Source: Escherichia phage bumzen
Length of the DNA stretch: 64,000 bases
Sequence record: MN850635.1
Strand: one strand, 5' to 3'
This document shows, one piece after another, positions 38,146-62,134 of the stretch. A model generated the notes under the pieces. It had not been told where the DNA came from. It did no database searches and was given only the letters and a program-made list of their open reading frames with translations. Position 1 is the stretch's first letter. Every line of letters begins with the position of its first letter. Both the position numbers and the translations under genes were made by a program.

Positions 38146-39027
38146 ATGAAAACTGTTATTGAAGTCGTTGTCACCGCACAAGAGAAATTCTTCCACACAG
38201 AAAAATTTAATATCATCCAATTCCCATCTGGAGAAATTGGTGGAAACTTCTCTGAAGATTTTGTTAAGTTTACTGAGCGTAATGCTGGTAAGATTGACAA
38301 TGTTATACTTACTGTGCAGGGATATGATAAAGATACACTGTTTGCATTAGCTTTGGCTAAGGATGCCGTTGACAGTCTTGTTCCACATAAATCAGCGATG
38401 AAAACCGTTGTTTTCGGGTTCTTACCGAATGCTCGATATGACCGACATATGTTCAAAGGTGATTCAGCAGCACTGAAAGCTTTTGCCAACCTCGTTAATG
38501 CAATGGGCTTTGATGCAGTATGTGCTCTTGACCCTCACAGCAATGTTGCAGAAAACTTATTTAAGTGCTTTCAGGGCATGAAGCAAAAAGATGTAGCAGC
38601 ACACTTTGCAAGTGACCCACGCATTGATTTCTTGGTAGCCCCAGATGCAGGTGCAGCTAAGAAGACTGAAGAGACTGCTAAAGAGGTGGATAAACCATAT
38701 ATCACAATGTCTAAAATGCGTAACCTTAAGACTGGTGAAATTACTGGTATGCGAATCCTTGATGATGTTGATTTGACCGATAAAACTGTTATGATTCTCG
38801 ACGATATCTGTGATGGCGGTCGAACCTTCATAGAAGCAGCTAAACATCTTCGTGAAGCAGGTGCAAAACGTGTGGAACTCTATGTAACTCATGGCATTTT
38901 CTCTAAAGGTGTTGAAAGCTTACTTGACAATGGTATTGACCATATCTACACTACAAACACTTTAGGTGAAGCTAAAGACCGTGGCTTAACACATTATGGC
39001 CAAGTTACTGTAGCAACCATTGATTGA
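38146..39027 (+). CDS. ribose-phosphate pyrophosphokinase family protein (Prs-like; possible ADPR-pyrophosphate synthetase of NARP1)
   Basis: PRPP-binding signature VMILDDICDGGRT; start set at first ATG (track ORF begins 38125). Confidence 0.75.
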   Translation: MKTVIEVVVTAQEKFFHTEKFNIIQFPSGEIGGNFSEDFVKFTERNAGKIDNVILTVQGYDKDTLFALALAKDAVDSLVPHKSAMKTVVFGFLPNARYDRHMFKGDSAALKAFANLVNAMGFDAVCALDPHSNVAENLFKCFQGMKQKDVAAHFASDPRIDFLVAPDAGAAKKTEETAKEVDKPYITMSKMRNLKTGEITGMRILDDVDLTDKTVMILDDICDGGRTFIEAAKHLREAGAKRVELYVTHGIFSKGVESLLDNGIDHIYTTNTLGEAKDRGLTHYGQVTVATID

Positions 39028-39072: not shown

Positions 39073-40854
39073 ATGACTAAATCACTTTATGCAGTACCAG
39101 CAGGTTTAAACGCAGATGCTTACAAATCTGGTCATGTTTACCAGTATCCTAGTGCAACAGATTACTTGATGTTCAACCTGACACCACGTAGCGACAAATG
39201 GTTTAACAGCCCTTTAGCAATTGATGGTGTAGTGGCTTTTGGTATTCAACGTTTTGTTAAAGATTACTTGATAGACCACTGGAACGCCACTTTCTTTGAA
39301 CGTGATAAAAAAGAAGCAATTGACGAAATCTTAGAAGTTATGAATGGTGTTCTGGGGAAAGATGCTATCGGTCGAGAGCATTGGGAAGCACTTCACGACT
39401 TAGGTTATCTACCAGTTGAAGTGTACGCTGTAGAAGAAGGCACAGTTGTCCCGATGCGTGTCCCAATGATTGTCTTCCAGAACACTGTTTCAGGTTTCCA
39501 TTGGGTAGCAGGTTATCTAGAAGACGCTTTCTCTGCTGAGATTTGGAAGGCTTGCACCATTGCAACTATTGCATTGCACTACAAACGTATCTGTAAGAAG
39601 TGGGCTGACCTCACTTGCGACAACGACTTGCATTTACCTTATCAGTGCCATGACTTTGCTATGCGTGGTATGTCCGGCTTTACTGATGACGCATTCAACG
39701 CTGTAGGACACTTAACCAGCTTTAAAGGGACTGATAGCTTCCCTGCTGTATACACGGCTAAACGTATCTATGGGCAGACCTATCCAATCTCTGATATTGG
39801 AAGCTCTGTACCAGCCACTGAACACTCTGTAATGTGTGCAAACATTGCTTGGGAAGGTGGTAACGAGTTGGTTGAAGAAGAAAGACGATTTAAAGGTGAG
39901 TTACAAACCTTCCGTCGTTTCTTAACAGAAACTTACCCAACTGGTATTGCAAGTATTGTTTCAGACACTTATAACTTCTGGAGAACTGTGTCAGAAATCT
40001 TACCAGCACTTCGTAAAGAAATTATGGAACGTGATGGTAAGCTGGTAATTCGCCCTGACTCTGGAGACCCTGTACATATTGTCACAGGCTATAAAGCAAT
40101 CCACTTAGAGTGTGCTAAGAAGGCTTATTATGAGCACCTAAGCAAGCTGGAAGCTAGTGACACAATGTTGAATGCTGTTCTGAACATGAAGCTTGAAAAC
40201 ATCAACTATGGTATTGCTGGATGGCTACTGTCAGAAGGCTACGAAATGGTTGTTGACAAAGAAGACTTTGAAGTTGCTGATACAGTGATGTTGAAAAATG
40301 CTTATATGGTTGGCTCTGCAAACGTTGTAACACGTCCTGTAGCAGAGATTGATGGAGCTATTAAGACCCTGTACAACATCTTCGGAGGGACTATTAACTC
40401 TAAAGGGTTTAAGGTACTGGATGAGCACATCGGCCTTATCTATGGTGACTCTATCACGCTGGAACGTGCAAACGAAATCCTGAAGCGTCTGTATGAAATG
40501 GGTTTTGCAAGCTCTAACGTAGTGTTTGGTGTAGGCTCTTACACTTACCAGTACATGACTCGTGACACCTTTGCATTTGCTGTCAAAGCAACTCTTGCAA
40601 GCATTGGTGGTAAAGAGATTATGCTTGCAAAAGACCCTAAAACAGATAGTGGTGTTAAGAAATCTGCCTTTGGTGGTGTAGCACCTATGTGGGATGGTGA
40701 TAAGCTGAAAGCTGTAGATGGCTATGGATTCCAGAGTTTTGCAGATGTACTTGACCACCAAGCTTGTGCTTTACGTTTAGTCTTTAGCGACTCTGAGCAG
40801 TTCGGTTATACAACTCTTGGAGATATTCGAAATAATATTGACAAGCAGCTTTAA
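39073..40854 (+). CDS. nicotinamide phosphoribosyltransferase family protein (NAMPT-like; possible Namat of NARP1)
   Basis: 593 aa, recognised as NAMPT/NAPRTase-type by overall sequence character; adjacent to Prs-like gene. Confidence 0.7.
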   Translation: MTKSLYAVPAGLNADAYKSGHVYQYPSATDYLMFNLTPRSDKWFNSPLAIDGVVAFGIQRFVKDYLIDHWNATFFERDKKEAIDEILEVMNGVLGKDAIGREHWEALHDLGYLPVEVYAVEEGTVVPMRVPMIVFQNTVSGFHWVAGYLEDAFSAEIWKACTIATIALHYKRICKKWADLTCDNDLHLPYQCHDFAMRGMSGFTDDAFNAVGHLTSFKGTDSFPAVYTAKRIYGQTYPISDIGSSVPATEHSVMCANIAWEGGNELVEEERRFKGELQTFRRFLTETYPTGIASIVSDTYNFWRTVSEILPALRKEIMERDGKLVIRPDSGDPVHIVTGYKAIHLECAKKAYYEHLSKLEASDTMLNAVLNMKLENINYGIAGWLLSEGYEMVVDKEDFEVADTVMLKNAYMVGSANVVTRPVAEIDGAIKTLYNIFGGTINSKGFKVLDEHIGLIYGDSITLERANEILKRLYEMGFASSNVVFGVGSYTYQYMTRDTFAFAVKATLASIGGKEIMLAKDPKTDSGVKKSAFGGVAPMWDGDKLKAVDGYGFQSFADVLDHQACALRLVFSDSEQFGYTTLGDIRNNIDKQL

Positions 40855-40869
40855 AAGTATATGATAAGA

Positions 40870-40890
40870 GGCTCCTACGGGAGCCTTTTT
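40870..40890 (+). terminator. rho-independent terminator
   Basis: ggctcc-tacg-ggagcc then ttttt. Confidence 0.7.
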
Positions 40891-40907
40891 AATTTCTGGA
40901 GAAGATT

Positions 40908-45085: not shown

Positions 45086-45634
45086 ATGAAGAAATTGATT
45101 CTAGGTTTGTGCTTAATGTTTACAGCACACTTATCTTATGCAGTTGACTGCCCAGAGCTATCAATTAGCCAAAAAGTAAACATGTTAAAAGCTTACCAGT
45201 ATGGTGAGAATAACATGGGTAAAGGTTGGGGTATCACTCTAGCTGCTATAGCCTTACAAGAGTCAGAGTTAGGTCTGAAGGTAGAGAATAAAAAGACACA
45301 TGATTATGGTATCTTCCAGAATCACTTGAAGACTGTTGTAAAGCGTAACAAAATTAGTCCTAATGTGGCTAAAAAGAAACTCTTAAGAGACTTTGATTAT
45401 GCTGCGAAGGAAACTCACAAAGAGCTTGAGTTTTGGACAAAGGTGCATGGTCAGCCAAAGTCAAAGAAGACTTTACAAAAAGTTTTAGCATCATATAATG
45501 CTGGGTATTCGTACAAAATTCCTAAAGCTAAGAAATACTCTCAAGATGTCTATAACAATATGAAAGTCATCGCTCAATGTGAATTTGCAATAAACATTTC
45601 TAAGGTAAACCATGAAAAAATTAAAAAAGTCTGA
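45086..45634 (+). CDS. secreted lytic transglycosylase-like (SLT domain) protein
   Basis: Signal peptide MKKLILGLCLMFTAHLSYA; AIALQESELG...DYGIFQ resembles SLT catalytic-Glu motif. Confidence 0.4.
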   Translation: MKKLILGLCLMFTAHLSYAVDCPELSISQKVNMLKAYQYGENNMGKGWGITLAAIALQESELGLKVENKKTHDYGIFQNHLKTVVKRNKISPNVAKKKLLRDFDYAAKETHKELEFWTKVHGQPKSKKTLQKVLASYNAGYSYKIPKAKKYSQDVYNNMKVIAQCEFAINISKVNHEKIKKV

Positions 45635-46307
45635 TGAAGTACTGTGTCATGCTTACGACTTACATCCTCATGAGTTAGGTCTTGATTCCTGTGTATGGAC
45701 TCCAGAACAGTGTAGGGATTTTGAAGACACTGCAAGAGAAGTTGTATGTTCACTCGAAGAGTTCCACACATCAGAGCCAATTGTGAATGTTGTAGATAAA
45801 GAGACTGGACAAACTATAGGTGTAAGTCGTGATAGCTTAGTCATAGTCAATAAAGACCTTGTAGAAAAAGGTAACCTCATCTTAGCAGATATTGATGGTG
45901 TTCTTACAAATTTTAATCACGAAGATTGCTCAACGGAATTGACTGATGGGTCATTCTCACAGTACACTAATCTTCTTGACTCTGTAAGAGCAAAACCAAC
46001 GTATGTCTTTAGTATTATTGATGCAATTGCTAATCATGCTGCCATTGGACTCTTGACAGCGAGAGGTGAATCTCAGAGAATACCTACTGAGATGTTTTTA
46101 AGGCATAACACAGAGCATGACTACATGCTTTTTATGCGTGGTTTTGGGACTAACTCTATAAGTGCAGAAAGTTTGAAAGTGAGGATGATTCAGTCTTGCA
46201 TTCTGCCTTACTTTAATATAGTATGTTTTATAGAAGATACAGAGAAGAATGTGCAGAAGGTGAACAGAATCCTTCCACACATCAAAACCATGTTAGTTAA
46301 ACATTGA
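45612..46307 (+). CDS. HAD-superfamily hydrolase-like protein (possible nucleotidase/phosphatase)
   Basis: ILADIDGVLT (DxDxT/V motif I) and GLLTARGES (motif II-like). Confidence 0.4.
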   Translation: MKKLKKSDEVLCHAYDLHPHELGLDSCVWTPEQCRDFEDTAREVVCSLEEFHTSEPIVNVVDKETGQTIGVSRDSLVIVNKDLVEKGNLILADIDGVLTNFNHEDCSTELTDGSFSQYTNLLDSVRAKPTYVFSIIDAIANHAAIGLLTARGESQRIPTEMFLRHNTEHDYMLFMRGFGTNSISAESLKVRMIQSCILPYFNIVCFIEDTEKNVQKVNRILPHIKTMLVKH

Positions 46308-46793: not shown

Positions 46794-46818
46794 AGGCTCC
46801 TTCGGGAGCCTTTTTCAT
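46794..46818 (+). terminator. rho-independent terminator with UUCG loop
   Basis: aggctcc-ttcg-ggagcct then ttttc. Confidence 0.7.
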
Positions 46819-46834
46819 TTCAGGAGATTGTTAA

Positions 46835-47182
46835 ATGACATTTAAAGAGTTCTGTCAAGCTACTTTCATAATTGTTTTCTTAGTTGGGGCAGGTGTCTGG
46901 GGAGGATACTCTTACAGAGACTACCAAGTTGCTGAAGCTGAGTTAAGCAATGAGAAACTAATAAGTGTTGCTAAAGACGCTTATCAGGAAGGTTTAGCCA
47001 CACTGAGCACCAATTACAAAAATGATTTGAAAGATGTGCTTGCTAAGAATAAGCATACAAAAGAGGTACTAACATATGAAAAAACTAAGCCAGAGTTTTA
47101 TAATGTTTGTGTTACTGATAACTATGTCAGGGTGTTCAACGAACAAAGTGAGCAGTACATTCAAAAACTCCCAAGTAAGTGA
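46835..47182 (+). CDS. type II membrane protein (i-spanin-like)
   Basis: 115 aa; N-terminal TM FIIVFLVGAGVWGGY then charged domain; overlapped by lipoprotein gene. Confidence 0.4.
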   Translation: MTFKEFCQATFIIVFLVGAGVWGGYSYRDYQVAEAELSNEKLISVAKDAYQEGLATLSTNYKNDLKDVLAKNKHTKEVLTYEKTKPEFYNVCVTDNYVRVFNEQSEQYIQKLPSK

Positions 47183-47345
47183 GGGTGATAAGTACACCCA
47201 AGAAGAATCACGGTATATCATCAAAGGCAACACAGGCAGCGATGTAGCAGCAGCCCTTGAGTTCTATCGTGACGGCTTTTACCAGTGCACAATCAAAGCT
47301 AACAACCTTATTGACATGATTTTATTAGGGAATAAGCAGCAATGA
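47076..47345 (+). CDS. lipoprotein (o-spanin-like)
   Basis: 89 aa; lipobox LITMSGCS; begins inside previous gene in another frame. Confidence 0.4.
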   Translation: MKKLSQSFIMFVLLITMSGCSTNKVSSTFKNSQVSEGDKYTQEESRYIIKGNTGSDVAAALEFYRDGFYQCTIKANNLIDMILLGNKQQ

Positions 47346-47611
47346 CAGAGAATCAAGATACTTTTTACGTAGAAGGGTACTTACTGTTACCACGACCAAA
47401 AGAGACTTATATGCGAATTGATTTCTCACCAACCATTATGGATAATGTGATGTGCCATATCTTTATGCAAGGTGTCACAGCACAGCTTAAACATGTTGGT
47501 AAAGAGTGCAAAATAAAGGTTGACACTCATCCAGAAATCAAAGAGAATCACTACACATGGTTCTTACCAGATTCTAAAGAAATCTTAGCAGTTCTTAAAA
47601 CGAGGAAGTAG
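47342..47611 (+). CDS. hypothetical protein
   Basis: 89 aa ORF. Confidence 0.4.
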   Translation: MTENQDTFYVEGYLLLPRPKETYMRIDFSPTIMDNVMCHIFMQGVTAQLKHVGKECKIKVDTHPEIKENHYTWFLPDSKEILAVLKTRK

Positions 47612-47613
47612 CT

Positions 47614-47940
47614 ATGCAGATTAATGGAAGAGACTTTGTAGCCGTTTACTATGATAACAATAAAGAAGTTGGTGTAGCACAGGTAACCTATGGCAATGGT
47701 AAGTGGCTATATGGAACAATCGCAGTAGTAGGAACAAGAAGTGATACAAAAACTTTTAAAGATTGTGTTGACCTTCTTGAAGAATCCATCCACAATCATT
47801 GGTGTCTGATATGGATGACTGACAATGAAGTGATGGAACGTTTCAAAAAGATTGATATCAACATTGATAGTATTGAGCATGTTGATTTATATGAGCTAAC
47901 TGAGAAGGTAAATTATGAGAGTAATTCTAGCCAGAGATAA
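47614..47940 (+). CDS. hypothetical protein
   Basis: 108 aa ORF. Confidence 0.4.
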   Translation: MQINGRDFVAVYYDNNKEVGVAQVTYGNGKWLYGTIAVVGTRSDTKTFKDCVDLLEESIHNHWCLIWMTDNEVMERFKKIDINIDSIEHVDLYELTEKVNYESNSSQR

Positions 47941-48142
47941 AAAGACACGGAAACTCATCCGGTCAGCAGTATTCATTGGAAGAAATGAAGTCATCCCGTT
48001 TACAACAAACCTTGTGATAGCTTACAGGAAAAACTTAGTATTTAGTGATTGCTTGCGCGGCTTCATCTCCCAACCGTTGGAAGACTTTAAAAGCCGTTGT
48101 GGTAAAGGTATCATCATTCAAGAGGCAATTATTCATGGCTGA
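47915..48142 (+). CDS. hypothetical protein
   Basis: 75 aa ORF. Confidence 0.3.
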   Translation: MRVILARDKKTRKLIRSAVFIGRNEVIPFTTNLVIAYRKNLVFSDCLRGFISQPLEDFKSRCGKGIIIQEAIIHG

Positions 48143-48335
48143 TTTCTGCAAAGACTGTGCTATCGAAATGTTCGGACGTGATACAGGTGACTTAAAAGGT
48201 CTTATCACTGAAGATGACTTTAAAGCTGGCTATGCAATGCCAGTAATCTGTGAAGGTTGTGGATGTATCTGGGTAGACCACGAAGGACAACGTGTAAAAC
48301 CTTCAGAAGATAAAGAATCTTGGGAGAGATGCTAA
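48135..48335 (+). CDS. small zinc-ribbon protein
   Basis: Start at internal ATG 48135 (MADFCKDCAIEM...CEGCGC). Confidence 0.35.
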   Translation: MADFCKDCAIEMFGRDTGDLKGLITEDDFKAGYAMPVICEGCGCIWVDHEGQRVKPSEDKESWERC

Positions 48336-49121
48336 ATGGGTATTGTAAAAATCATCAATGGGGATATCTTCTCCGCATTTGATAAAGGTAAGTTTGATAT
48401 TATTGGTCACGGTTGCAACTGTATGAATTTAATGGGTGCAGGTATCGCTGACAAGATTTCTAAACTTTACCCAAAAGCATATGAGACCGATACAGAAGTT
48501 TATCTGTATGCAGGTGGCATAGGCCACAAACCCTGTGAAAATTTACTAGGGAATTTCTCTGTAGCACGTTTAGAACAAGGCCGTATAGCTAACCTTTACA
48601 CACAACTTCATACTGGTAAAGATGCCCGATACAGTGCTTTAGAGTCATCTTTGAAGAAACTTAACATGTACTGTGAAGTCAATCAGTTGAAGAAAGTCGG
48701 GTTACCTATGATTGGCGCAGGTATCGGTGGACTAGACCCTCAAGCCGTCACAGTTATCATTAATCAGGTGATGAAGAGTGTAGATGTTTATCTGTATGTC
48801 TACGAAGGAGAGATGTACCACAAGTTACGCTCAGGTTGGAATAACTACTGTGAACCAGAATACTTTGCAGGTGTAGTAATGTTCACAGATGATACAGTTA
48901 CCCTCTTCAGACGAAGAAAAGGTAAGATACATCAAAGTAACCCTCCGGTTGAGAAGATGTCTCTAAGTAACGCTCTAGTTACCCACCTGTCAAAGAGCAA
49001 TCACAGAATTGCTGTAACATTTGGTAGTGATGCAGAAGCTTATATCTATGCAAGAACTGATGAGGATATCGAGGCAATCTTCTCTTCACCAGAAGTTACC
49101 TTCTTAGACGCAAAGAACTAA
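48336..49121 (+). CDS. macro-domain-like protein (ADP-ribose binding/hydrolase fold) with C-terminal extension
   Basis: NGDIFSAF...DIIGHGCNCMNLMGAGIA and LPMIGAGIGGLDPQAV resemble macro-domain motifs. Confidence 0.4.
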   Translation: MGIVKIINGDIFSAFDKGKFDIIGHGCNCMNLMGAGIADKISKLYPKAYETDTEVYLYAGGIGHKPCENLLGNFSVARLEQGRIANLYTQLHTGKDARYSALESSLKKLNMYCEVNQLKKVGLPMIGAGIGGLDPQAVTVIINQVMKSVDVYLYVYEGEMYHKLRSGWNNYCEPEYFAGVVMFTDDTVTLFRRRKGKIHQSNPPVEKMSLSNALVTHLSKSNHRIAVTFGSDAEAYIYARTDEDIEAIFSSPEVTFLDAKN

Positions 49122-49189
49122 GAAACTCTGTAGTATATTCACAATAGCCTAAGCCTTTCTTATCTGGTAAATTTTTCAGGTAAGGAGGG

Positions 49190-49375
49190 CTTTTTCATTT
49201 TAGAATTGTGCAGGTAGAGTTCTGTAGAGAAATCTGTAGAGAGAATTTTGAACTCCAAAGGGAAAATTCATTTTCAAACTGTGCAGGTAATCTCCAAAGA
49301 GCTTTTTCATTTTCAAAACGTGCAGACCCCGCTCAGGTCGGGCAAGAAAAATCATTTTAGATTTGTGCAGGTAGG
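49190..49375 (+). repeat. four direct repeats of a ~22 bp motif upstream of the early-gene array
   Basis: cattttagaattgtgcaggta / cattttcaaactgtgcaggta / cattttcaaaacgtgcagacc / cattttagatttgtgcaggta, then C-rich tract 49393-49428. Confidence 0.6.
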
Positions 49376-49571
49376 TTTTTATAGAGAGCCAGACCAACCC
49401 CTCTCCCCCTCTTACTCCCCCTCTCCCCAAAAGTCAAGAGAAAAATTTGTAGCGGATTGAAAAATAATTCTTGATTTGTGTTCTGTTTTGTGGTAGTCGT
49501 GTGCGCCCGTTTCATTACAGTTTTGCCAAAAATATTTTTAAAATTTTTTCTTGACTCTTTGAACGTGGTTA

Positions 49572-49600
49572 TCTAGTATTTGCATCAACGGGGAGGGAAT
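49572..49600 (+). promoter_or_regulatory. strong sigma70-like promoter at head of small-gene array
   Basis: TTGACT - 17 bp - TAGTAT with AT-rich UP-like region upstream; then hairpin leader and RBS. Confidence 0.65.
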
Positions 49601-49642
49601 GACCTTCCCCACTAAATAAAGTCCTAAACTGGAGATTCAAAA

Positions 49643-50023
49643 ATGGCATATCGCGCACCTAAATTCATCAATAAAGACAACTTTCGCAACGCACTGGAGA
49701 AGTCACTTGATGAAAATTTTAAAGGTAACATTATCGTTGTTCACGCATTCAATTTTAAGTATGATGTAAACGGGAATAGAATCAACCATTACACGGCAAC
49801 CATGTTAGATGGTACACTATCAAGTGAAAAAGCCGTACTGAATGCACTAGCAGGACGCGGAAAAGTATTAGTAAGATGCGATAAGCGACGTTATCAGGGT
49901 GGCGCATATGGTTATGATGATGCTGTTTATCATCTTGAAAATATGGGCTATAAAGTAGAAAAAGCTGGGGTATCGCAAATCATCGGGAGCGATGGTTATG
50001 TAACAATCTTCAAAATTAACTGA
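49643..50023 (+). CDS. hypothetical early protein
   Basis: 126 aa; own promoter cassette and conserved leader/RBS. Confidence 0.5.
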   Translation: MAYRAPKFINKDNFRNALEKSLDENFKGNIIVVHAFNFKYDVNGNRINHYTATMLDGTLSSEKAVLNALAGRGKVLVRCDKRRYQGGAYGYDDAVYHLENMGYKVEKAGVSQIIGSDGYVTIFKIN

Positions 50024-50032
50024 TAAAGTACT

Positions 50033-50061
50033 TTACAAGGGGCTTATAGTTCGATAGAGTA
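50033..50061 (+). promoter_or_regulatory. family-A promoter cassette
   Basis: TTTACA - 17 bp - TAGAGT; spacer and -10 lie within palindrome ggggctta...taagcccc; conserved ~60 nt leader. Confidence 0.55.
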
Positions 50062-50113
50062 AGCCCCAGATAAAGAGCTTTACCACTCAATCCTAAATTG
50101 GAGAATCTGAAAA

Positions 50114-52964: not shown

Positions 52965-53531
52965 ATGAAATGCTATCACGGCACTACTCTGAAAAACTTT
53001 GTAAACCTGCTTAAAGGTGGCGACAAGCCGGAAGGTATCTGGAACTGCTCTTACATGGATGATTGTTTTTACGTTTACCCGATGGATAAGATTATCAAGA
53101 CGGGATGCCTGGAAGATGAAGAAGTCTCTTACATCCGTGAACGCTGCATGCAAAACGCTTTAGAGTCGGGGCTTATTACGGCAGCTTTCCAAATGGAAAC
53201 GCAGGAAGTGATTGTAATTGAGATGGATATCCCAGAGGAAGAACTTGAGGACGATTATTCTTGTGACAACATGAGCGAAATCGCCAGCTTTACCGGTTAC
53301 TTTGATAAAGATTGGATTATCGGTATTCACTCAACGAAATTTAGTGCAATGTATGCGCCATTCTTTGTACCTGATACAACTAACCGCAATTTGGGCTATA
53401 TTGACGATGATTTGTTGAGTATTGCAAAAATTGTACAGAATAGCGGGGATACTTCTTCTGTGTTTTGTGACCTGCTGGATAAAATTACCGAGAATCTCAC
53501 AGAGCGCAATCTAAGCGACTTTTTAGACTAA
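52965..53531 (+). CDS. hypothetical early protein
   Basis: 188 aa, acidic. Confidence 0.5.
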   Translation: MKCYHGTTLKNFVNLLKGGDKPEGIWNCSYMDDCFYVYPMDKIIKTGCLEDEEVSYIRERCMQNALESGLITAAFQMETQEVIVIEMDIPEEELEDDYSCDNMSEIASFTGYFDKDWIIGIHSTKFSAMYAPFFVPDTTNRNLGYIDDDLLSIAKIVQNSGDTSSVFCDLLDKITENLTERNLSDFLD

Positions 53532-60785: not shown

Positions 60786-61250
60786 TTACTTTGGATATAC
60801 ACTGTCAAGATAAATGTCAGCTTCCATTCTACGTCTGTTTTTCAGGCCGTTTGAAGTGACCTTCTTACCTTTCACTGTAACCTTGTTCCACCACTGCATA
60901 GCTTCTGCACAACCTACCTTATTACCAGCATTGTGGCGCTTGATAAATGTAGAATCCTGCATAGCTGTGATGCCGATGTTGTATGTTTCACTTACAAGTG
61001 CATCAAACTCGTTCTGAGAAGTTGGAACCTTGATGGCTTTGTTCACTGCTGCAACGAACTTTTCAACATCTGCAAGAAGATACTGTTCAGCTTGTTCAGC
61101 GGTAATCTTCATACCCATCTTAACAGGCTTCCCACCAATACGAATTGTCCCATACCCGATTGTAGGGATTCCGGCAGAGTCTTCGTAAGCCTCTAACTTC
61201 AGACCTTCAAAGAACTTAATAGCTTCTAAACCTTTTCTTGAGAGTTGCAT
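60786..61250 (-). CDS. endolysin, GH24 lysozyme family
   Basis: N-terminal EGLKLEAYEDSAGIPTIGYG matches the Glu-Asp-Thr catalytic motif of T4/lambda-type lysozymes. Confidence 0.8.
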   Translation of the reverse strand: MQLSRKGLEAIKFFEGLKLEAYEDSAGIPTIGYGTIRIGGKPVKMGMKITAEQAEQYLLADVEKFVAAVNKAIKVPTSQNEFDALVSETYNIGITAMQDSTFIKRHNAGNKVGCAEAMQWWNKVTVKGKKVTSNGLKNRRRMEADIYLDSVYPK

Positions 61251-62134
61251 TATGCCTCCCCTGCTGGATTAACTGTAACTGTTGCTGCATTAGATGTTAC
61301 AGAGCCACCTGCGCCAGTAACTACACAGGTGTAGCTTCCTGAATCAGCAGCGGTTGCTCCTTCTTTGGTGTAGGTTGCAGTAGTTGCATCGAGGATGTCT
61401 TCCTCATCTTTCTTCCACTGATAACCTGTTGCACCTGTTGCCACAACATTCAACGTTAAGGTCTCACCTTCATTGATTTCTTGATTGGTTGGCTGTTGAG
61501 TGATGACAGGAAGTGCATTCACAGTCACTGTTGCTGCATCTGAGGTAACACTTGTTCCACCCTCTCCAGATACAACACAAGTGTATGAACCAGCATCAGA
61601 AGGTGCTACTGACTGTTTTGTGTAAGTTGCAGAATTGGCACTAGGGATGTCCTCACCATCCTTCTTCCACTGATATCCAGTGGCGTTAGTTGCTAGAATG
61701 CTTAGAGTAAGTGTGCCACCCTCATTGACTGTTTGACCTGTCGGTTGCTGAGTAATTGCTGGTGGCTTAATAGCATCCTTCAACTTAGCATTCAACATTG
61801 AGAACGGCTTAACTCTTGCCAACCATTCACAGTAAATTGTGTCAACATCTTTACCATTGATGATTGCATACTGCAAATCCATGAAGAAATCAGCAGTTCT
61901 CATCTGTGCACCAACACTGTAAAGCAATTCATCACTAAATGGAACTTTGTAGTCTGGTTTGTAGTCAAACTTCTCAACTTCTGCAATATCAGCTTCAGGC
62001 CAATATGAACTATAGGTAAGTGGTAAAATAGCCTCTTGATATGTTCTAAAATCATACCTCTTACCAGCCTTTACATTTGCAATGAAACCCTTCACAAACT
62101 CTTTGAAGTCTGGGTAAGTCTTTGCTTTAATCAT
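61250..62134 (-). CDS. protein with N-terminal conserved domain and two tandem Ig-like domains
   Basis: Two repeats TGYQWKKD(G/E)EDI...ATYTK...D(A/S)GSYTCVV...ATVTVN; stop overlaps endolysin start (TAATG). Confidence 0.65.
   Translation of the reverse strand: MIKAKTYPDFKEFVKGFIANVKAGKRYDFRTYQEAILPLTYSSYWPEADIAEVEKFDYKPDYKVPFSDELLYSVGAQMRTADFFMDLQYAIINGKDVDTIYCEWLARVKPFSMLNAKLKDAIKPPAITQQPTGQTVNEGGTLTLSILATNATGYQWKKDGEDIPSANSATYTKQSVAPSDAGSYTCVVSGEGGTSVTSDAATVTVNALPVITQQPTNQEINEGETLTLNVVATGATGYQWKKDEEDILDATTATYTKEGATAADSGSYTCVVTGAGGSVTSNAATVTVNPAGEA

What the first reader, a model, noticed from the sequence alone, without database searches (positions are those of the whole stretch)
48336..49121. 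Macro-domain-like protein in the same early region as the NAD-related genes
Seen: N-terminal GDIF...DIIGHGCNCMNLMGAGIA and later LPMIGAGIGGLDPQAV resemble the ADP-ribose-binding motifs of macro domains, followed by a ~100 aa extension. Established: macro domains bind or hydrolyse ADP-ribose adducts and derivatives. Inference: the phage may reverse ADP-ribosylation-based immunity or feed ADP-ribose into the Prs-like/NAMPT-like pathway.
Basis: partly seen in the sequence, partly recalled or inferred. Interest (0 to 1): 0.55.

Follow-up and report, generated by a model that had tools for sequence, protein, structure and literature searches.

The report
Two-domain macrodomain hydrolase of Felix-O1-like phage
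This phage gene really does encode an ADP-ribose-processing "macro" enzyme with an extra orphan domain, but it belongs to the phage T4 Tk.4-type subclass, not to the subclass known to feed the phage's NAD+-rebuilding pathway, so its target (most likely ADP-ribose attached to DNA, RNA or protein by host defences) is still open and easy to test.

Summary
Window 48336-49121 (+) encodes a 261-aa protein with a bona fide macro domain (aa 1-156) and a separately folded, roughly 105-aa C-terminal domain (CTD) that has no detectable relatives outside Ounavirinae phages. The window is a Felixounavirus.

The Prs-like/NAMPT-like genes are the experimentally validated NARP1 pathway. They lie 7.5-10 kb upstream in another transcription unit.

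This protein lacks two features shared by all 22 NARP1-linked macros examined: operon adjacency and a 3-8-residue insertion after the catalytic Gln. Among 73 other viral loci, short-loop macros like this one had NARP1 within 10 kb in 0 of 32 cases, against 14 of 41 for long-loop macros.

The protein is closest to T4 Tk.4, from a phage in which no NARP1 is known. It also lacks the DarG/TARG1 catalytic Lys. It has His25/Asn28/Gln90, as in SCO6735 and Adpp.

Two alleles only 41% identical are exchanged on near-identical phage backbones, which suggests a counter-defence role.

Verdict: a real, already-annotated macrodomain gene and a new variant of a known kind. The substrate is unresolved. I favour macromolecular de-ADP-ribosylation (confidence about 0.35) over Adpp-like phosphatase activity (about 0.3).

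The parts
48336..49121 (+). Complete CDS (261 aa plus stop) of the two-domain macro-CTD protein. An SD-like GGGAGAG lies 7-13 nt upstream, and the start codon directly abuts the stop codon of the upstream ORF (..TAA ATG..).
48336..48803 (+). Macro domain, aa 1-156, of the ALC1-like (TARG1/DarG/SCO6735/Poa1p) class and the short-loop 'Tk.4-type' subclass. Key codons: His25 48408-48410, Asn28 48417-48419, Gln90 48603-48605, glycine loop P124-G132 48705-48731.
   Evidence: Pfam; profile against PDB; fold; catalytic columns; omega about 0.07
48804..49118 (+). Linker helix (aa 158-167) plus an orphan beta-rich C-terminal domain (aa ~176-250). pI 5.8. It evolves about 4x faster than the macro domain.
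49151..49192 (+). Terminator-like hairpin (17-bp stem followed by a T-run) 30 nt after the stop codon. It ends the transcription unit that runs from about 46835 to 49121.
48135..48335 (+). Upstream 66-aa CxxC...CxxC ORF (PHROG 2210, unknown function), translationally coupled to the macro gene. It is conserved in Felixounavirus but not in more distant Ounavirinae. Context only.
38146..39027 (+). Adps-type Prs-like gene of NARP1. A possible but unproven downstream user of the ADPR released by the macro enzyme.
   Evidence: Pfam/NCBIfam; annotation; NARP1 validated in the Felixounavirus Bas63
39073..40854 (+). Namat-type NAMPT-like gene of NARP1. Same caveat as above.

Best explanation
The gene encodes a catalytically competent ADP-ribose C1''-hydrolase that acts as a counter-defence enzyme and is probably expressed early. 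Shown: (a) an N-terminal macrodomain of the TARG1/DarG/SCO6735/Poa1p class; (b) an intact ADP-ribose-binding glycine loop; (c) a His25/Asn28/Gln90 centre, i.e. a non-lysine, SCO6735/Adpp-like catalytic arrangement; (d) a short 7-residue loop after Gln90 and a 'GGLD' glycine loop, as in DarG and TARG1; (e) closest similarity to T4 Tk.4; (f) a C-terminal orphan domain that is maintained by selection but evolves fast; (g) exchange of whole divergent alleles of the gene between otherwise near-identical phages. Inferred: the enzyme removes ADP-ribose from a macromolecular or otherwise bulky C1'' conjugate made by a host defence. My preferred candidate is thymidine-linked ADP-ribose placed on phage ssDNA by DarT2-type toxins. 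ADP-ribosylated RNA or protein are alternatives. The C-terminal domain would act as a lineage-specific targeting or toxin-binding module, functionally analogous but not homologous to the second domain of DarG. The free ADP-ribose released could then be recycled to NAD+ by the phage's own NARP1 enzymes encoded 7.5-10 kb upstream.
For: Macro fold and class. Catalytic columns: searches show H25, N28 and Q90 conserved. Q85A in SCO6735 (equivalent to Q90) abolishes ADPr-thymidine DNA hydrolysis. Thymidine-ADPr hydrolysis is reported for TARG1, DarG and SCO6735 in this class, with only weak activity from ARH3 and MACROD2. Loop class: the N86-A102 segment is 17 aa, as in DarG and TARG1, whereas all 22 NARP1-linked macros have 20-25 aa. 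Short-loop macros have NARP1 within 10 kb in 0 of 32 loci against 14 of 41 for long-loop macros, Fisher p = 1.4e-4. With full 8-kb flanks only, the figures are 0 of 22 against 9 of 23, p = 0.0015. The closest characterised-genome relative is T4 Tk.4 at 34% identity and 79 bits, against 28% and 54 bits for Adpp. No NARP1 is known in T4 (my own knowledge; not checked here), and T4 remains DarTG2-resistant without AdfA and AdfN, which implies an unidentified factor. A phage macrodomain that erases DarT2 marks already exists: AdfM. Arms-race signature: the CTD has omega 0.31 against 0.07 for the macro domain, and alleles only 41% identical sit on backbones 90-98% identical. The two-domain form is conserved across Ounavirinae.
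Against: There is no biochemical or genetic evidence for any substrate. The DarG/AdfM/TARG1 catalytic Lys is absent. The DarG models match only the macro part, at 49 bits against a 250-bit cut-off, and the validated phosphatase Adpp scores about the same. The CTD shows no fold similarity to anything, including DarG's toxin-binding domain. The macro domain is only mildly basic (pI 8.3) and the CTD is acidic, so no DNA-binding surface is evident. The motif His that is essential in Adpp (H24A) is conserved here, and NARP1 co-occurs in every Ounavirinae genome examined, which fits the phosphatase rival. SCO6735, the Gln-type DNA hydrolase, has a long loop, so loop length alone is not diagnostic. 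Deep nodes of the tree are unresolved, with 16-52% bootstrap support.
Confidence: 0.35

Rival explanations
1. It is a trans-acting Adpp-like ADPR-1''-phosphate phosphatase. It dephosphorylates the ADPR-1''P made by aRES-type RES-domain NAD+ phosphorylases, giving ADPR that the phage's NARP1 (Adps + Namat) rebuilds into NAD+. This would be an unlinked version of the published NARP1-AP pathway.
For: The protein is homologous to the validated Adpp of Vibrio phage Gary (28% identity, E = 5e-14; same PHROG-level family). His25 corresponds to Adpp H24, whose mutation abolishes anti-aRES activity. Asn28 and Gln90 are also shared. NARP1 is present in this window and was validated in the Felixounavirus Bas63. 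Macro plus NARP1 at about 8-10 kb is conserved across divergent Ounavirinae. aRES occurs in E. coli, Klebsiella and Enterobacter. Other phage lineages have macro and NARP1 6-9 kb apart (L061, L063, L041). Adpp gives the same PDB hit ranking as this protein. 'Feeder' enzymes for NARP1 are an established concept (RyDEP).
Against: The gene is not in the NARP1 operon: it lies 7.5 kb and at least 12 ORFs away, with terminator-like hairpins between. It is absent from the authors' list of NARP1-associated macros. It lacks the 3-8-residue aromatic/basic insertion after the catalytic Gln that is present in all 22 NARP1-linked macros. Outside Ounavirinae, its short-loop class is never NARP1-linked (0 of 32). 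That class includes T4 Tk.4, and at least about 800 Escherichia phage records have a macro homologue but no Namat/Nampt homologue (995 against 191). The phiEa104 ortholog has Gln in place of the essential His. The extra CTD is unexplained by this model.
Confidence: 0.3
2. It binds or degrades a small ADP-ribose-derived immune signal or metabolite, such as His-ADPR or gcADPR of Thoeris systems, or O-acetyl-ADP-ribose. It would act as a sponge or hydrolase against signalling-based defence.
For: Macro domains process groups attached at the 1'' or 2'' position of ADPR, including small molecules, and were predicted to target cADPR-type signals in phages (survey). Some records annotate the gene as 'O-acetyl-ADP-ribose deacetylase' or 'high-affinity ADP-ribose binding module'. 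The short, open loop could admit varied leaving groups.
Against: No specific evidence supports this. The catalytic residues are strongly conserved (omega 0.07), which argues for an enzyme rather than a sponge. Known anti-Thoeris proteins (Tad1/2, RyDEP) are unrelated folds (Tad1/2 from my own knowledge; RyDEP). The database annotations are transferred names, not tests.
Confidence: 0.12
3. It reverses or limits ADP-ribosylation carried out by a phage-encoded transferase (self-regulation, as an eraser for an Alt/Mod-like or Tpt1-like writer), or it clears ADPR-1''P/Appr>p by-products of an RNA-repair pathway.
For: T4 encodes ARTs (Alt, ModA, ModB; my own knowledge) together with Tk.4. The window has a PNK-like HAD phosphatase gene (45612-46307). 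PhageMaP reports that Bas63 gp107 weakly resembles the NAD-binding domain of RNA 2'-phosphotransferase. ORF 52965-53531 starts with a YHGT motif. Poa1p's natural role is clearing the Tpt1 by-product.
Against: ORF 52965-53531 has no Pfam or PDB support, even with a profile, and its identity with gp107 is unverified. No ART or RNA ligase was identified in the window. Allelic replacement and a fast-evolving CTD fit conflict with the host better than housekeeping.
Confidence: 0.1

Closest known systems
Phage T4 Tk.4 (NP_049723, 'A1pp phosphatase motif') and the T-even/PHROG 335 short-loop phage macrodomains
   Same: 34% identity, 79 bits. Same H-G-C-N-C, N-L-Y-T-Q and I-G-A-G-I-G motifs and the same 17-aa post-beta-strand segment. 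Both sit near a Vs.1-like gene in an early-gene region.
   Different: Tk.4 is single-domain (155 aa) and has 'GKGNW' rather than 'GGLDP'. No NARP1 is known in T4 (my own knowledge; not checked here). Tk.4's function is itself unknown.
Adpp, the ADPR-1''-phosphate phosphatase of NARP1-AP (Vibrio phage Gary; Osterman et al. 2026 preprint, 10.64898/2026.01.28.702374)
   Same: Homologous Poa1p-like macro domain. The essential His (H24 = H25), Asn and Gln are shared. The phage also carries NARP1.
   Different: Adpp is single-domain and encoded inside the NARP1 operon, and it has a 3-8-residue insertion after the Gln. This protein has none of these and carries an extra CTD.
DarG (DarTG2 antitoxin) and phage AdfM (PhiKZ gp104)
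   Same: Same macro class. Short 7-residue loop, 'GGLD' glycine loop and a conserved Asn. DarG is likewise bipartite: a macro domain plus a second domain.
   Different: The catalytic Lys (K80/K78) is replaced by Gln90. The motif His position is Asn in DarG. The CTD is unrelated to DarG's toxin-binding domain. The NCBIfam DarG score is 49 bits against a cut-off of 250.
SCO6735 / BT1257 bacterial macrodomains (Gln-type thymidine-ADPr DNA hydrolase)
   Same: Best profile hits in the PDB (E = 8e-22 and 2e-21). H-x-C-N motif, and Gln at the catalytic-Lys position, which is essential in SCO6735.
   Different: SCO6735 has a long mobile loop with Lys89/Lys93 proposed to clamp DNA, 'CND' rather than 'CNC', is single-domain, and is of chromosomal bacterial origin.

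Membership tests
Macro domain superfamily (Pfam PF01661) | Profile HMM score above the curated gathering threshold | tested here: met
   30.3 bits against 22, E = 4.3e-7, aa 25-141 covering profile positions 2-117 of 118
Macro domain superfamily (Pfam PF01661) | Three-layer alpha/beta/alpha fold superposable on solved macrodomains | tested here: met
   AF2 pLDDT 91. Foldseek: TARG1 E = 3.6e-10 with target TM-score 0.81-0.85; DarG 0.79-0.80; Poa1p 0.75.
Macro domain superfamily (Pfam PF01661) | ADP-ribose binding | not testable with these tools
   The glycine-rich loops G34-A-G36 and G127-A-G-I-G-G132 are conserved, but binding was not measured.
Adpp / NARP1-AP phosphatase | Catalytic His of the H-x-C-N-C motif (Adpp H24, Poa1p H23) | tested here: met
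   His25 aligns to it. The phiEa104 ortholog has Gln there.
Adpp / NARP1-AP phosphatase | Encoded within the NARP1 operon (within two genes of Adps/Namat, the authors' criterion) | tested here: not met
   7.5 kb and at least 12 ORFs downstream of Namat. Not in the authors' Table S1.
Adpp / NARP1-AP phosphatase | Insertion of 3-8 residues after the catalytic Gln. This is my empirical signature: it is present in all 22 NARP1-linked macros examined. | tested here: not met
   The segment is 17 aa here against 20-25 aa in NARP1-linked macros. NARP1 linkage is 0 of 32 for short-loop and 14 of 41 for long-loop macros.
Adpp / NARP1-AP phosphatase | ADPR-1''P to ADPR phosphatase activity, and rescue from aRES | not testable with these tools
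   Needs enzymology and plaque assays.
DarG / AdfM (DarT2 eraser macrodomains) | Catalytic Lys (TaqDarG K80, AdfM K78) | tested here: not met
   Gln90 is at that column.
DarG / AdfM (DarT2 eraser macrodomains) | Full-length match to DarG, including the C-terminal DarT-binding domain | tested here: not met
   NCBIfam antitoxin_DarG scores 49.3 bits against a cut-off of 250, over the macro part only. PADLOC DarG scores 48.5 bits over profile positions 17-146 of 329. The CTD alone gives no hit.
DarG / AdfM (DarT2 eraser macrodomains) | Hydrolysis of thymidine-linked ADP-ribose on ssDNA | not testable with these tools
   Needs a DarT2-modified oligonucleotide assay.
TARG1/OARD1 | Lys84/Asp125 catalytic dyad | tested here: not met
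   Gln90 and Gly131 are at those columns.
SCO6735/BT1257-type Gln macrodomains | Gln at the catalytic-Lys position plus the H-x-C-N motif | tested here: met
   Q90, H25 and N28
SCO6735/BT1257-type Gln macrodomains | Extended mobile loop with DNA-clamping lysines (K89/K93) | tested here: not met
   The loop is 7 residues here against 12-13.
T4 Tk.4-type short-loop phage macrodomains (PHROG 335) | PHROG 335 profile match and the N-L-Y-T-Q-x-x-x-G-x-x-x-x-Y 17-aa segment | tested here: met
   E = 8e-112; 34% identity to Tk.4; segment alignment

The most novel reading that the evidence does not exclude
The Ounavirinae macro-CTD protein, and by extension T4 Tk.4, would be a new class of phage anti-ADP-ribosylation factor. 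It would use a Gln-type (lysine-independent) eraser macrodomain against DarT2-like or other nucleic-acid ADP-ribosyltransferase defences. In Ounavirinae it would be fused to a non-homologous, rapidly diversifying domain that binds the toxin or a host or phage partner. That would be a convergent re-invention of DarG's bipartite 'erase and block' design, with allele swapping tracking toxin diversity. It could also identify the unknown anti-DarTG2 factor inferred for T4.
Probability: 0.2. Interest if true: 0.65.

Novelty: new variant of a known kind. Interest (0 to 1): 0.45.

Why it matters
Macrodomains occur in about 40% of myoviruses, yet only two phage macrodomain activities have been demonstrated: Adpp and AdfM. 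This analysis shows that the abundant Tk.4-type short-loop class fits neither. That class covers T-even phages, Felix O1-like phages used in Salmonella diagnostics and biocontrol, and many uncultured phages. A simple sequence signature, the insertion after the catalytic Gln, separates the macros physically linked to NAD+ reconstitution from the rest.

The signature gives a practical rule against over-annotating phage macro genes as 'Adpp' or 'phosphatase'. It also points to tractable experiments in Bas63, Felix O1 and T4 that could reveal a further counter-defence activity, possibly the unidentified anti-DarTG2 factor of T4. If instead the protein does feed NARP1 in trans, the known NARP1-AP pathway would extend to unlinked genes and to the phage in which NARP1 was discovered.

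Tried and rejected
1. PDB ranking as a guide to function. Single-sequence hits (DarG, TARG1), profile hits (BT1257, SCO6735, DarG, TARG1 and Poa1p, all E = 1e-22 to 1e-16) and Foldseek do not discriminate. The validated phosphatase Adpp gives the same ranking.

2. AdfB and AdfN as precedents. AdfB is a 77-aa non-macro binder and AdfN is a NADAR protein, so neither is relevant.

4. Conserved partner genes. The abutting 66-aa Cys-rich ORF is conserved only within Felixounavirus. Neighbour clustering was dominated by T-even synteny, and only a Vs.1-like family is shared with our window.

5. ORF 52965-53531 as a Tpt1/ART-like writer. It has no Pfam, PDB or profile support.

6. PhageMaP data for the Bas63 ortholog. 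The gene is not discussed and no supplement is held.

7. Literature on Felixounavirus or Tk.4 macro function. None was found. The JACS hydrolase panel contained no phage enzymes, and the CmdTAC paper says nothing on phage macros.

8. Prophage or host origin. There is no match in complete E. coli genomes.

9. Deep phylogeny. The NJ bootstrap tree resolves the Ounavirinae clade (98%) and a short-loop clade (100%), but not the relationships among the Adpp, T-even, SCO6735 and DarG groups.
Full report
**What is there.**

Both quoted motifs are present. The start codon directly follows the stop of a 66-aa upstream ORF (..TAA ATG..), and a GGGAGAG Shine-Dalgarno-like element lies 7-13 nt upstream. 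A 17-bp-stem terminator-like hairpin at 49151-49192 follows the gene, and another lies at 46794-46811. The gene therefore closes a tightly packed run of small ORFs from about 46835 to 49121.

The window is a Felixounavirus, a Felix O1-like myovirus of about 88 kb. It is 93-95% identical in nucleotide sequence to many Escherichia and Salmonella phages. In those records the gene is annotated variously as 'putative phosphatase', 'O-acetyl-ADP-ribose deacetylase', 'high-affinity ADP-ribose binding module' or 'hypothetical protein'. The existence of a macro-type gene here is therefore already on record at the annotation level.

**Is it a macro domain?**

Yes.
- Pfam Macro scores 30.3 bits against a gathering threshold of 22.
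- PHROG 335 matches at E = 8e-112.
- A macro-only profile hits solved macrodomains at E = 8e-22 (BT1257), 2e-21 (SCO6735), 6e-19 (M. tuberculosis DarG), 5e-18 (TARG1) and 1e-17 (Poa1p).
- An AlphaFold2 model built on 28 homologues has pLDDT 91 and pTM 0.89. It superposes on TARG1, DarG and Poa1p with target-normalised TM-scores of 0.75-0.85.

The model shows the macro domain (aa 1-156), a linker helix (aa 158-167) and a separate beta-rich domain (aa ~176-250). A macro HMM finds no other macro gene in the window.

**The C-terminal domain (CTD).**

The CTD has no detectable relatives outside this phage lineage.
- It has no Pfam or PADLOC match.
- Among 1.84 billion cluster representatives, only two close relatives were found.
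- The only significant hit among viral predicted structures is the orthologous protein of phage SUSP2.

The CTD is nonetheless conserved as part of a two-domain protein throughout Ounavirinae. This covers Felixounavirus, Mooglevirus and related uncultured lineages at 33-42% identity, and Kolesnikvirus phiEa104, where the CTD is too diverged for tblastn. The syntenic position is the same in all of them.

Nei-Gojobori estimates over six Felixounavirus orthologues give omega of about 0.07 for the macro domain and about 0.31 for the CTD. Both domains are thus maintained by selection, and the CTD evolves several-fold faster. The CTD is mildly acidic (pI 5.8) and the macro domain mildly basic (pI 8.3).

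**The NAD-related genes.**

The Prs-like ORF (Pribosyltran and Pribosyl_synth domains; TIGR01251) and the NAMPT-like ORF (NAPRTase; NF006629 at 469 bits) are present at about 38146-39027 and 39073-40854. They are orthologues of the pathway in which NARP1 (Adps + Namat) was discovered and validated, genes 79-80 of the Felixounavirus Bas63.

They are not adjacent to the macro gene. rIIA, rIIB, a Vs.1-like 'lysin', a PNK-like gene, another ORF and the spanins lie between them.

**Published precedents.**

Two phage macrodomain functions have been demonstrated.
1. Adpp is a Poa1p-like macro encoded inside about 15% of NARP1 operons. It dephosphorylates the ADPR-1''P produced by the aRES defence, so that NARP1 can rebuild NAD+. 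The H24A mutation abolishes this function.
2. AdfM is a DarG2-like macro of chimalliviruses with active-site N23/K78. It removes DarT2 marks from DNA.

AdfB and AdfN are not macrodomains. No Felixounavirus, Escherichia phage or Salmonella phage appears in the Adpp list.

**Catalytic-site comparison.**

In a structure-informed alignment, the protein has these residues:
- His25, equivalent to Adpp H24 and Poa1p H23. DarG has Asn at this position.
- Asn28, which is conserved in all the compared proteins except TARG1.
- Gln90 at the position of the catalytic Lys of DarG, AdfM and TARG1.
- Gly131 at the position of TARG1 Asp125.

The Gln is shared with Adpp and with SCO6735, where Q85A abolishes hydrolysis of thymidine-linked ADP-ribose on DNA. 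The active site is therefore of the lysine-independent type. That is compatible with both a phosphatase and a DNA-ADPr hydrolase.

The DarG family models match only the macro part, at about 49 bits against an equivalog cut-off of 250. The validated Adpp scores about the same against them. The validated Adpp also reproduces this protein's PDB hit ranking. Database rankings therefore cannot assign the substrate.

**A discriminating signature.**

I fetched 80 viral loci (73 unique, all outside Ounavirinae) that encode relatives of the macro domain. I scanned 10 kb on each side for Adps and Namat homologues and aligned the macro proteins.

The proteins fall into two classes according to the segment that follows the catalytic Gln:
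- A short class of 17 aa, with the pattern 'N-L-Y-T-Q-x-x-x-G-x-x-x-x-Y'.
- A long class of 19-25 aa, with an insertion of 2-8 residues rich in aromatic and basic residues.

NARP1 genes were found near 0 of 32 short-class loci and 14 of 41 long-class loci (Fisher p = 1.4e-4). With full 8-kb flanks only, the figures are 0 of 22 and 9 of 23 (p = 0.0015).

All 22 NARP1-linked macros examined, including the biochemically validated Adpp, belong to the long class (20-25 aa). The window's protein and every Ounavirinae orthologue are strictly of the short class. Their glycine loop reads 'GGLD', as in DarG, rather than 'GGDW' as in Adpp.

The protein is also more similar to T4 Tk.4 (34% identity, 79 bits) than to Adpp (28%, 54 bits). 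No NARP1 is known in T4 (my own knowledge; not checked here). More generally, 995 Escherichia phage records carry a macro homologue but only 191 carry a Namat/Nampt homologue.

A bootstrapped NJ tree supports the Ounavirinae two-domain clade (98%) and a surrounding short-loop clade (100%), but it leaves the deeper relationships unresolved.

**An arms-race signature.**

Locus L004 is a Felixounavirus whose flanking genes are 90-98% identical in protein sequence to this window. One 75-aa ORF (47915-48142) is an exception at 27%. The downstream intergenic DNA is 98.8% identical. Its macro-CTD gene, however, is only 41% identical, and nucleotide similarity is lost about 140 nt into the gene.

This 'allele B' is present at 95% identity or more in 13 sequenced Felixounaviruses, with nothing between 60% and 95%. 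One of the 13 is a laboratory-evolved VpaE1 derivative whose parent carries allele A.

Exchange of deeply divergent alleles on a conserved backbone, together with the faster-evolving CTD, is typical of genes engaged with variable host factors.

**Interpretation.**

Shown:
- a macro fold;
- intact ADP-ribose-binding loops;
- a conserved His/Asn/Gln centre under strong purifying selection;
- membership of the short-loop Tk.4 class;
- an orphan CTD that is maintained by selection;
- allele swapping between near-identical phages;
- NARP1 in the same genome, but not linked to this gene.

Inferred: the protein is an active hydrolase that frees ADP-ribose from a C1''-linked group and serves counter-defence.

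For the substrate I rank the possibilities as follows.
1. A macromolecular conjugate, with DarT2-type thymidine-ADPr on ssDNA as the preferred candidate (about 0.35). The reasons are the class's independence from NARP1, the DarG/TARG1-like loop geometry, the SCO6735 precedent for Gln-based DNA de-ADP-ribosylation, the bipartite architecture, and the report that T4 lacking AdfA and AdfN remains DarTG2-resistant.
2. Adpp-like ADPR-1''P phosphatase activity feeding NARP1 in trans (about 0.3). This is kept alive by the conserved His, the universal co-occurrence with NARP1 in Ounavirinae, the presence of aRES in the hosts, and the known promiscuity of macrodomains towards ADPR-1''P.
3. Small-molecule signal processing (about 0.12).
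4. Erasing marks made by a phage-encoded transferase, or clearing RNA-repair by-products (about 0.1).

In every scenario the product is free ADPR, which NARP1 could recycle. The 2022 survey of viral NAD+/ADPr systems states that these activities cannot be told apart from sequence alone.

**Novelty and verdict.**

The gene is real, ordinary in being a macrodomain, and already annotated as such. Its broad functional class (phage ADP-ribose-processing counter-defence) is known. Four things are new here:
- the demonstration that it is neither an Adpp-type nor a DarG/AdfM-type member;
- the loop signature that separates NARP1-linked phage macros from the others;
- the lineage-specific orphan domain;
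- the allelic dimorphism.

I rate it a new variant of a known kind, of moderate interest (0.45), with clear and inexpensive decisive experiments.

Noticed in passing
window 48336-49121 vs L004:10001-10780; also window 47915-48142 vs L004:9560-9787: Two sharply distinct alleles (41% aa identity) of the macro-CTD gene occur on Felixounavirus backbones that are 90-98% identical in the flanking genes. Allele B is found in 13 sequenced phages, with no intermediates between 60% and 95%. A neighbouring 75-aa ORF is likewise swapped (27% identity).
   Followed up: yes
L096 (T4 NC_000866) 60922-61389, gene tk.4: T4 Tk.4 ('phosphatase, A1pp motif') is the T-even representative of the same short-loop macro class. 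It sits next to vs, vs.1 and regB. It is an obvious untested candidate for the unidentified anti-DarTG2 factor inferred for T4 in the AdfN paper.
   Followed up: partly
window 52965-53531 (+): A 188-aa ORF beginning MKCYHGTT is conserved only in Ounavirinae (PHROG 3303, unknown function). The N-terminal YHGT recalls Tpt1/PARP-type NAD-binding motifs, and PhageMaP describes Bas63 gp107 as weakly Tpt1-like. However, Pfam, PDB and profile searches gave nothing, and its identity with gp107 was not verified.
   Followed up: partly
window 48135-48335 (+): A 66-aa CxxC...CxxC (zinc-ribbon-like) ORF is translationally coupled to the macro gene (stop TAA abuts the ATG). It is 98% conserved even where the macro allele is swapped, and is replaced by unrelated ORFs in more distant Ounavirinae.
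   Followed up: partly
L009 (Erwinia phage phiEa104) 8483-9265; also L019, L042, L057, L082: Some members of the family, including the Kolesnikvirus two-domain ortholog, have Gln instead of the motif His that is essential in Adpp. This suggests that the His is not universally required in the short-loop class.
   Followed up: no
window 45086-45634 (+) and T-even loci (e.g. L065:9010-9648; T4 vs.1): A Vs.1-like protein (annotated 'putative lysin'; called RegB-like in phiEa104) is the only neighbour family shared between short-loop macro loci of T-even phages and this window. This hints at an exchanged early-gene cassette.
   Followed up: partly
window 45612-46307 (+): A 231-aa 'polynucleotide kinase' (PHROG 3970) whose orthologues in related loci give weak matches only to the HAD phosphatase domain of PNKP. 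It may be a 3'-phosphatase without the kinase domain. Its relevance to RNA repair or ADPR-1''P metabolism is unknown.
   Followed up: no
window 40869-40902 and 46794-46827; 49151-49192: Near-identical terminator-like hairpin elements recur at several ends of early transcription units. The 520-bp intergenic region after the macro gene (49122-49642) carries short internal repeats, and related phages have 0.3-2 kb insertions within the 47300-50100 region (e.g. 4.8 kb aligned for a 2.8-kb query).
   Followed up: no
public records GU169904 (Staphylococcus phage SA1) and Campylobacter phage records hit: These records contain DNA about 94% identical to this Felixounavirus region. This probably reflects contamination or mis-assembly in those deposits rather than true host range.
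   Followed up: no
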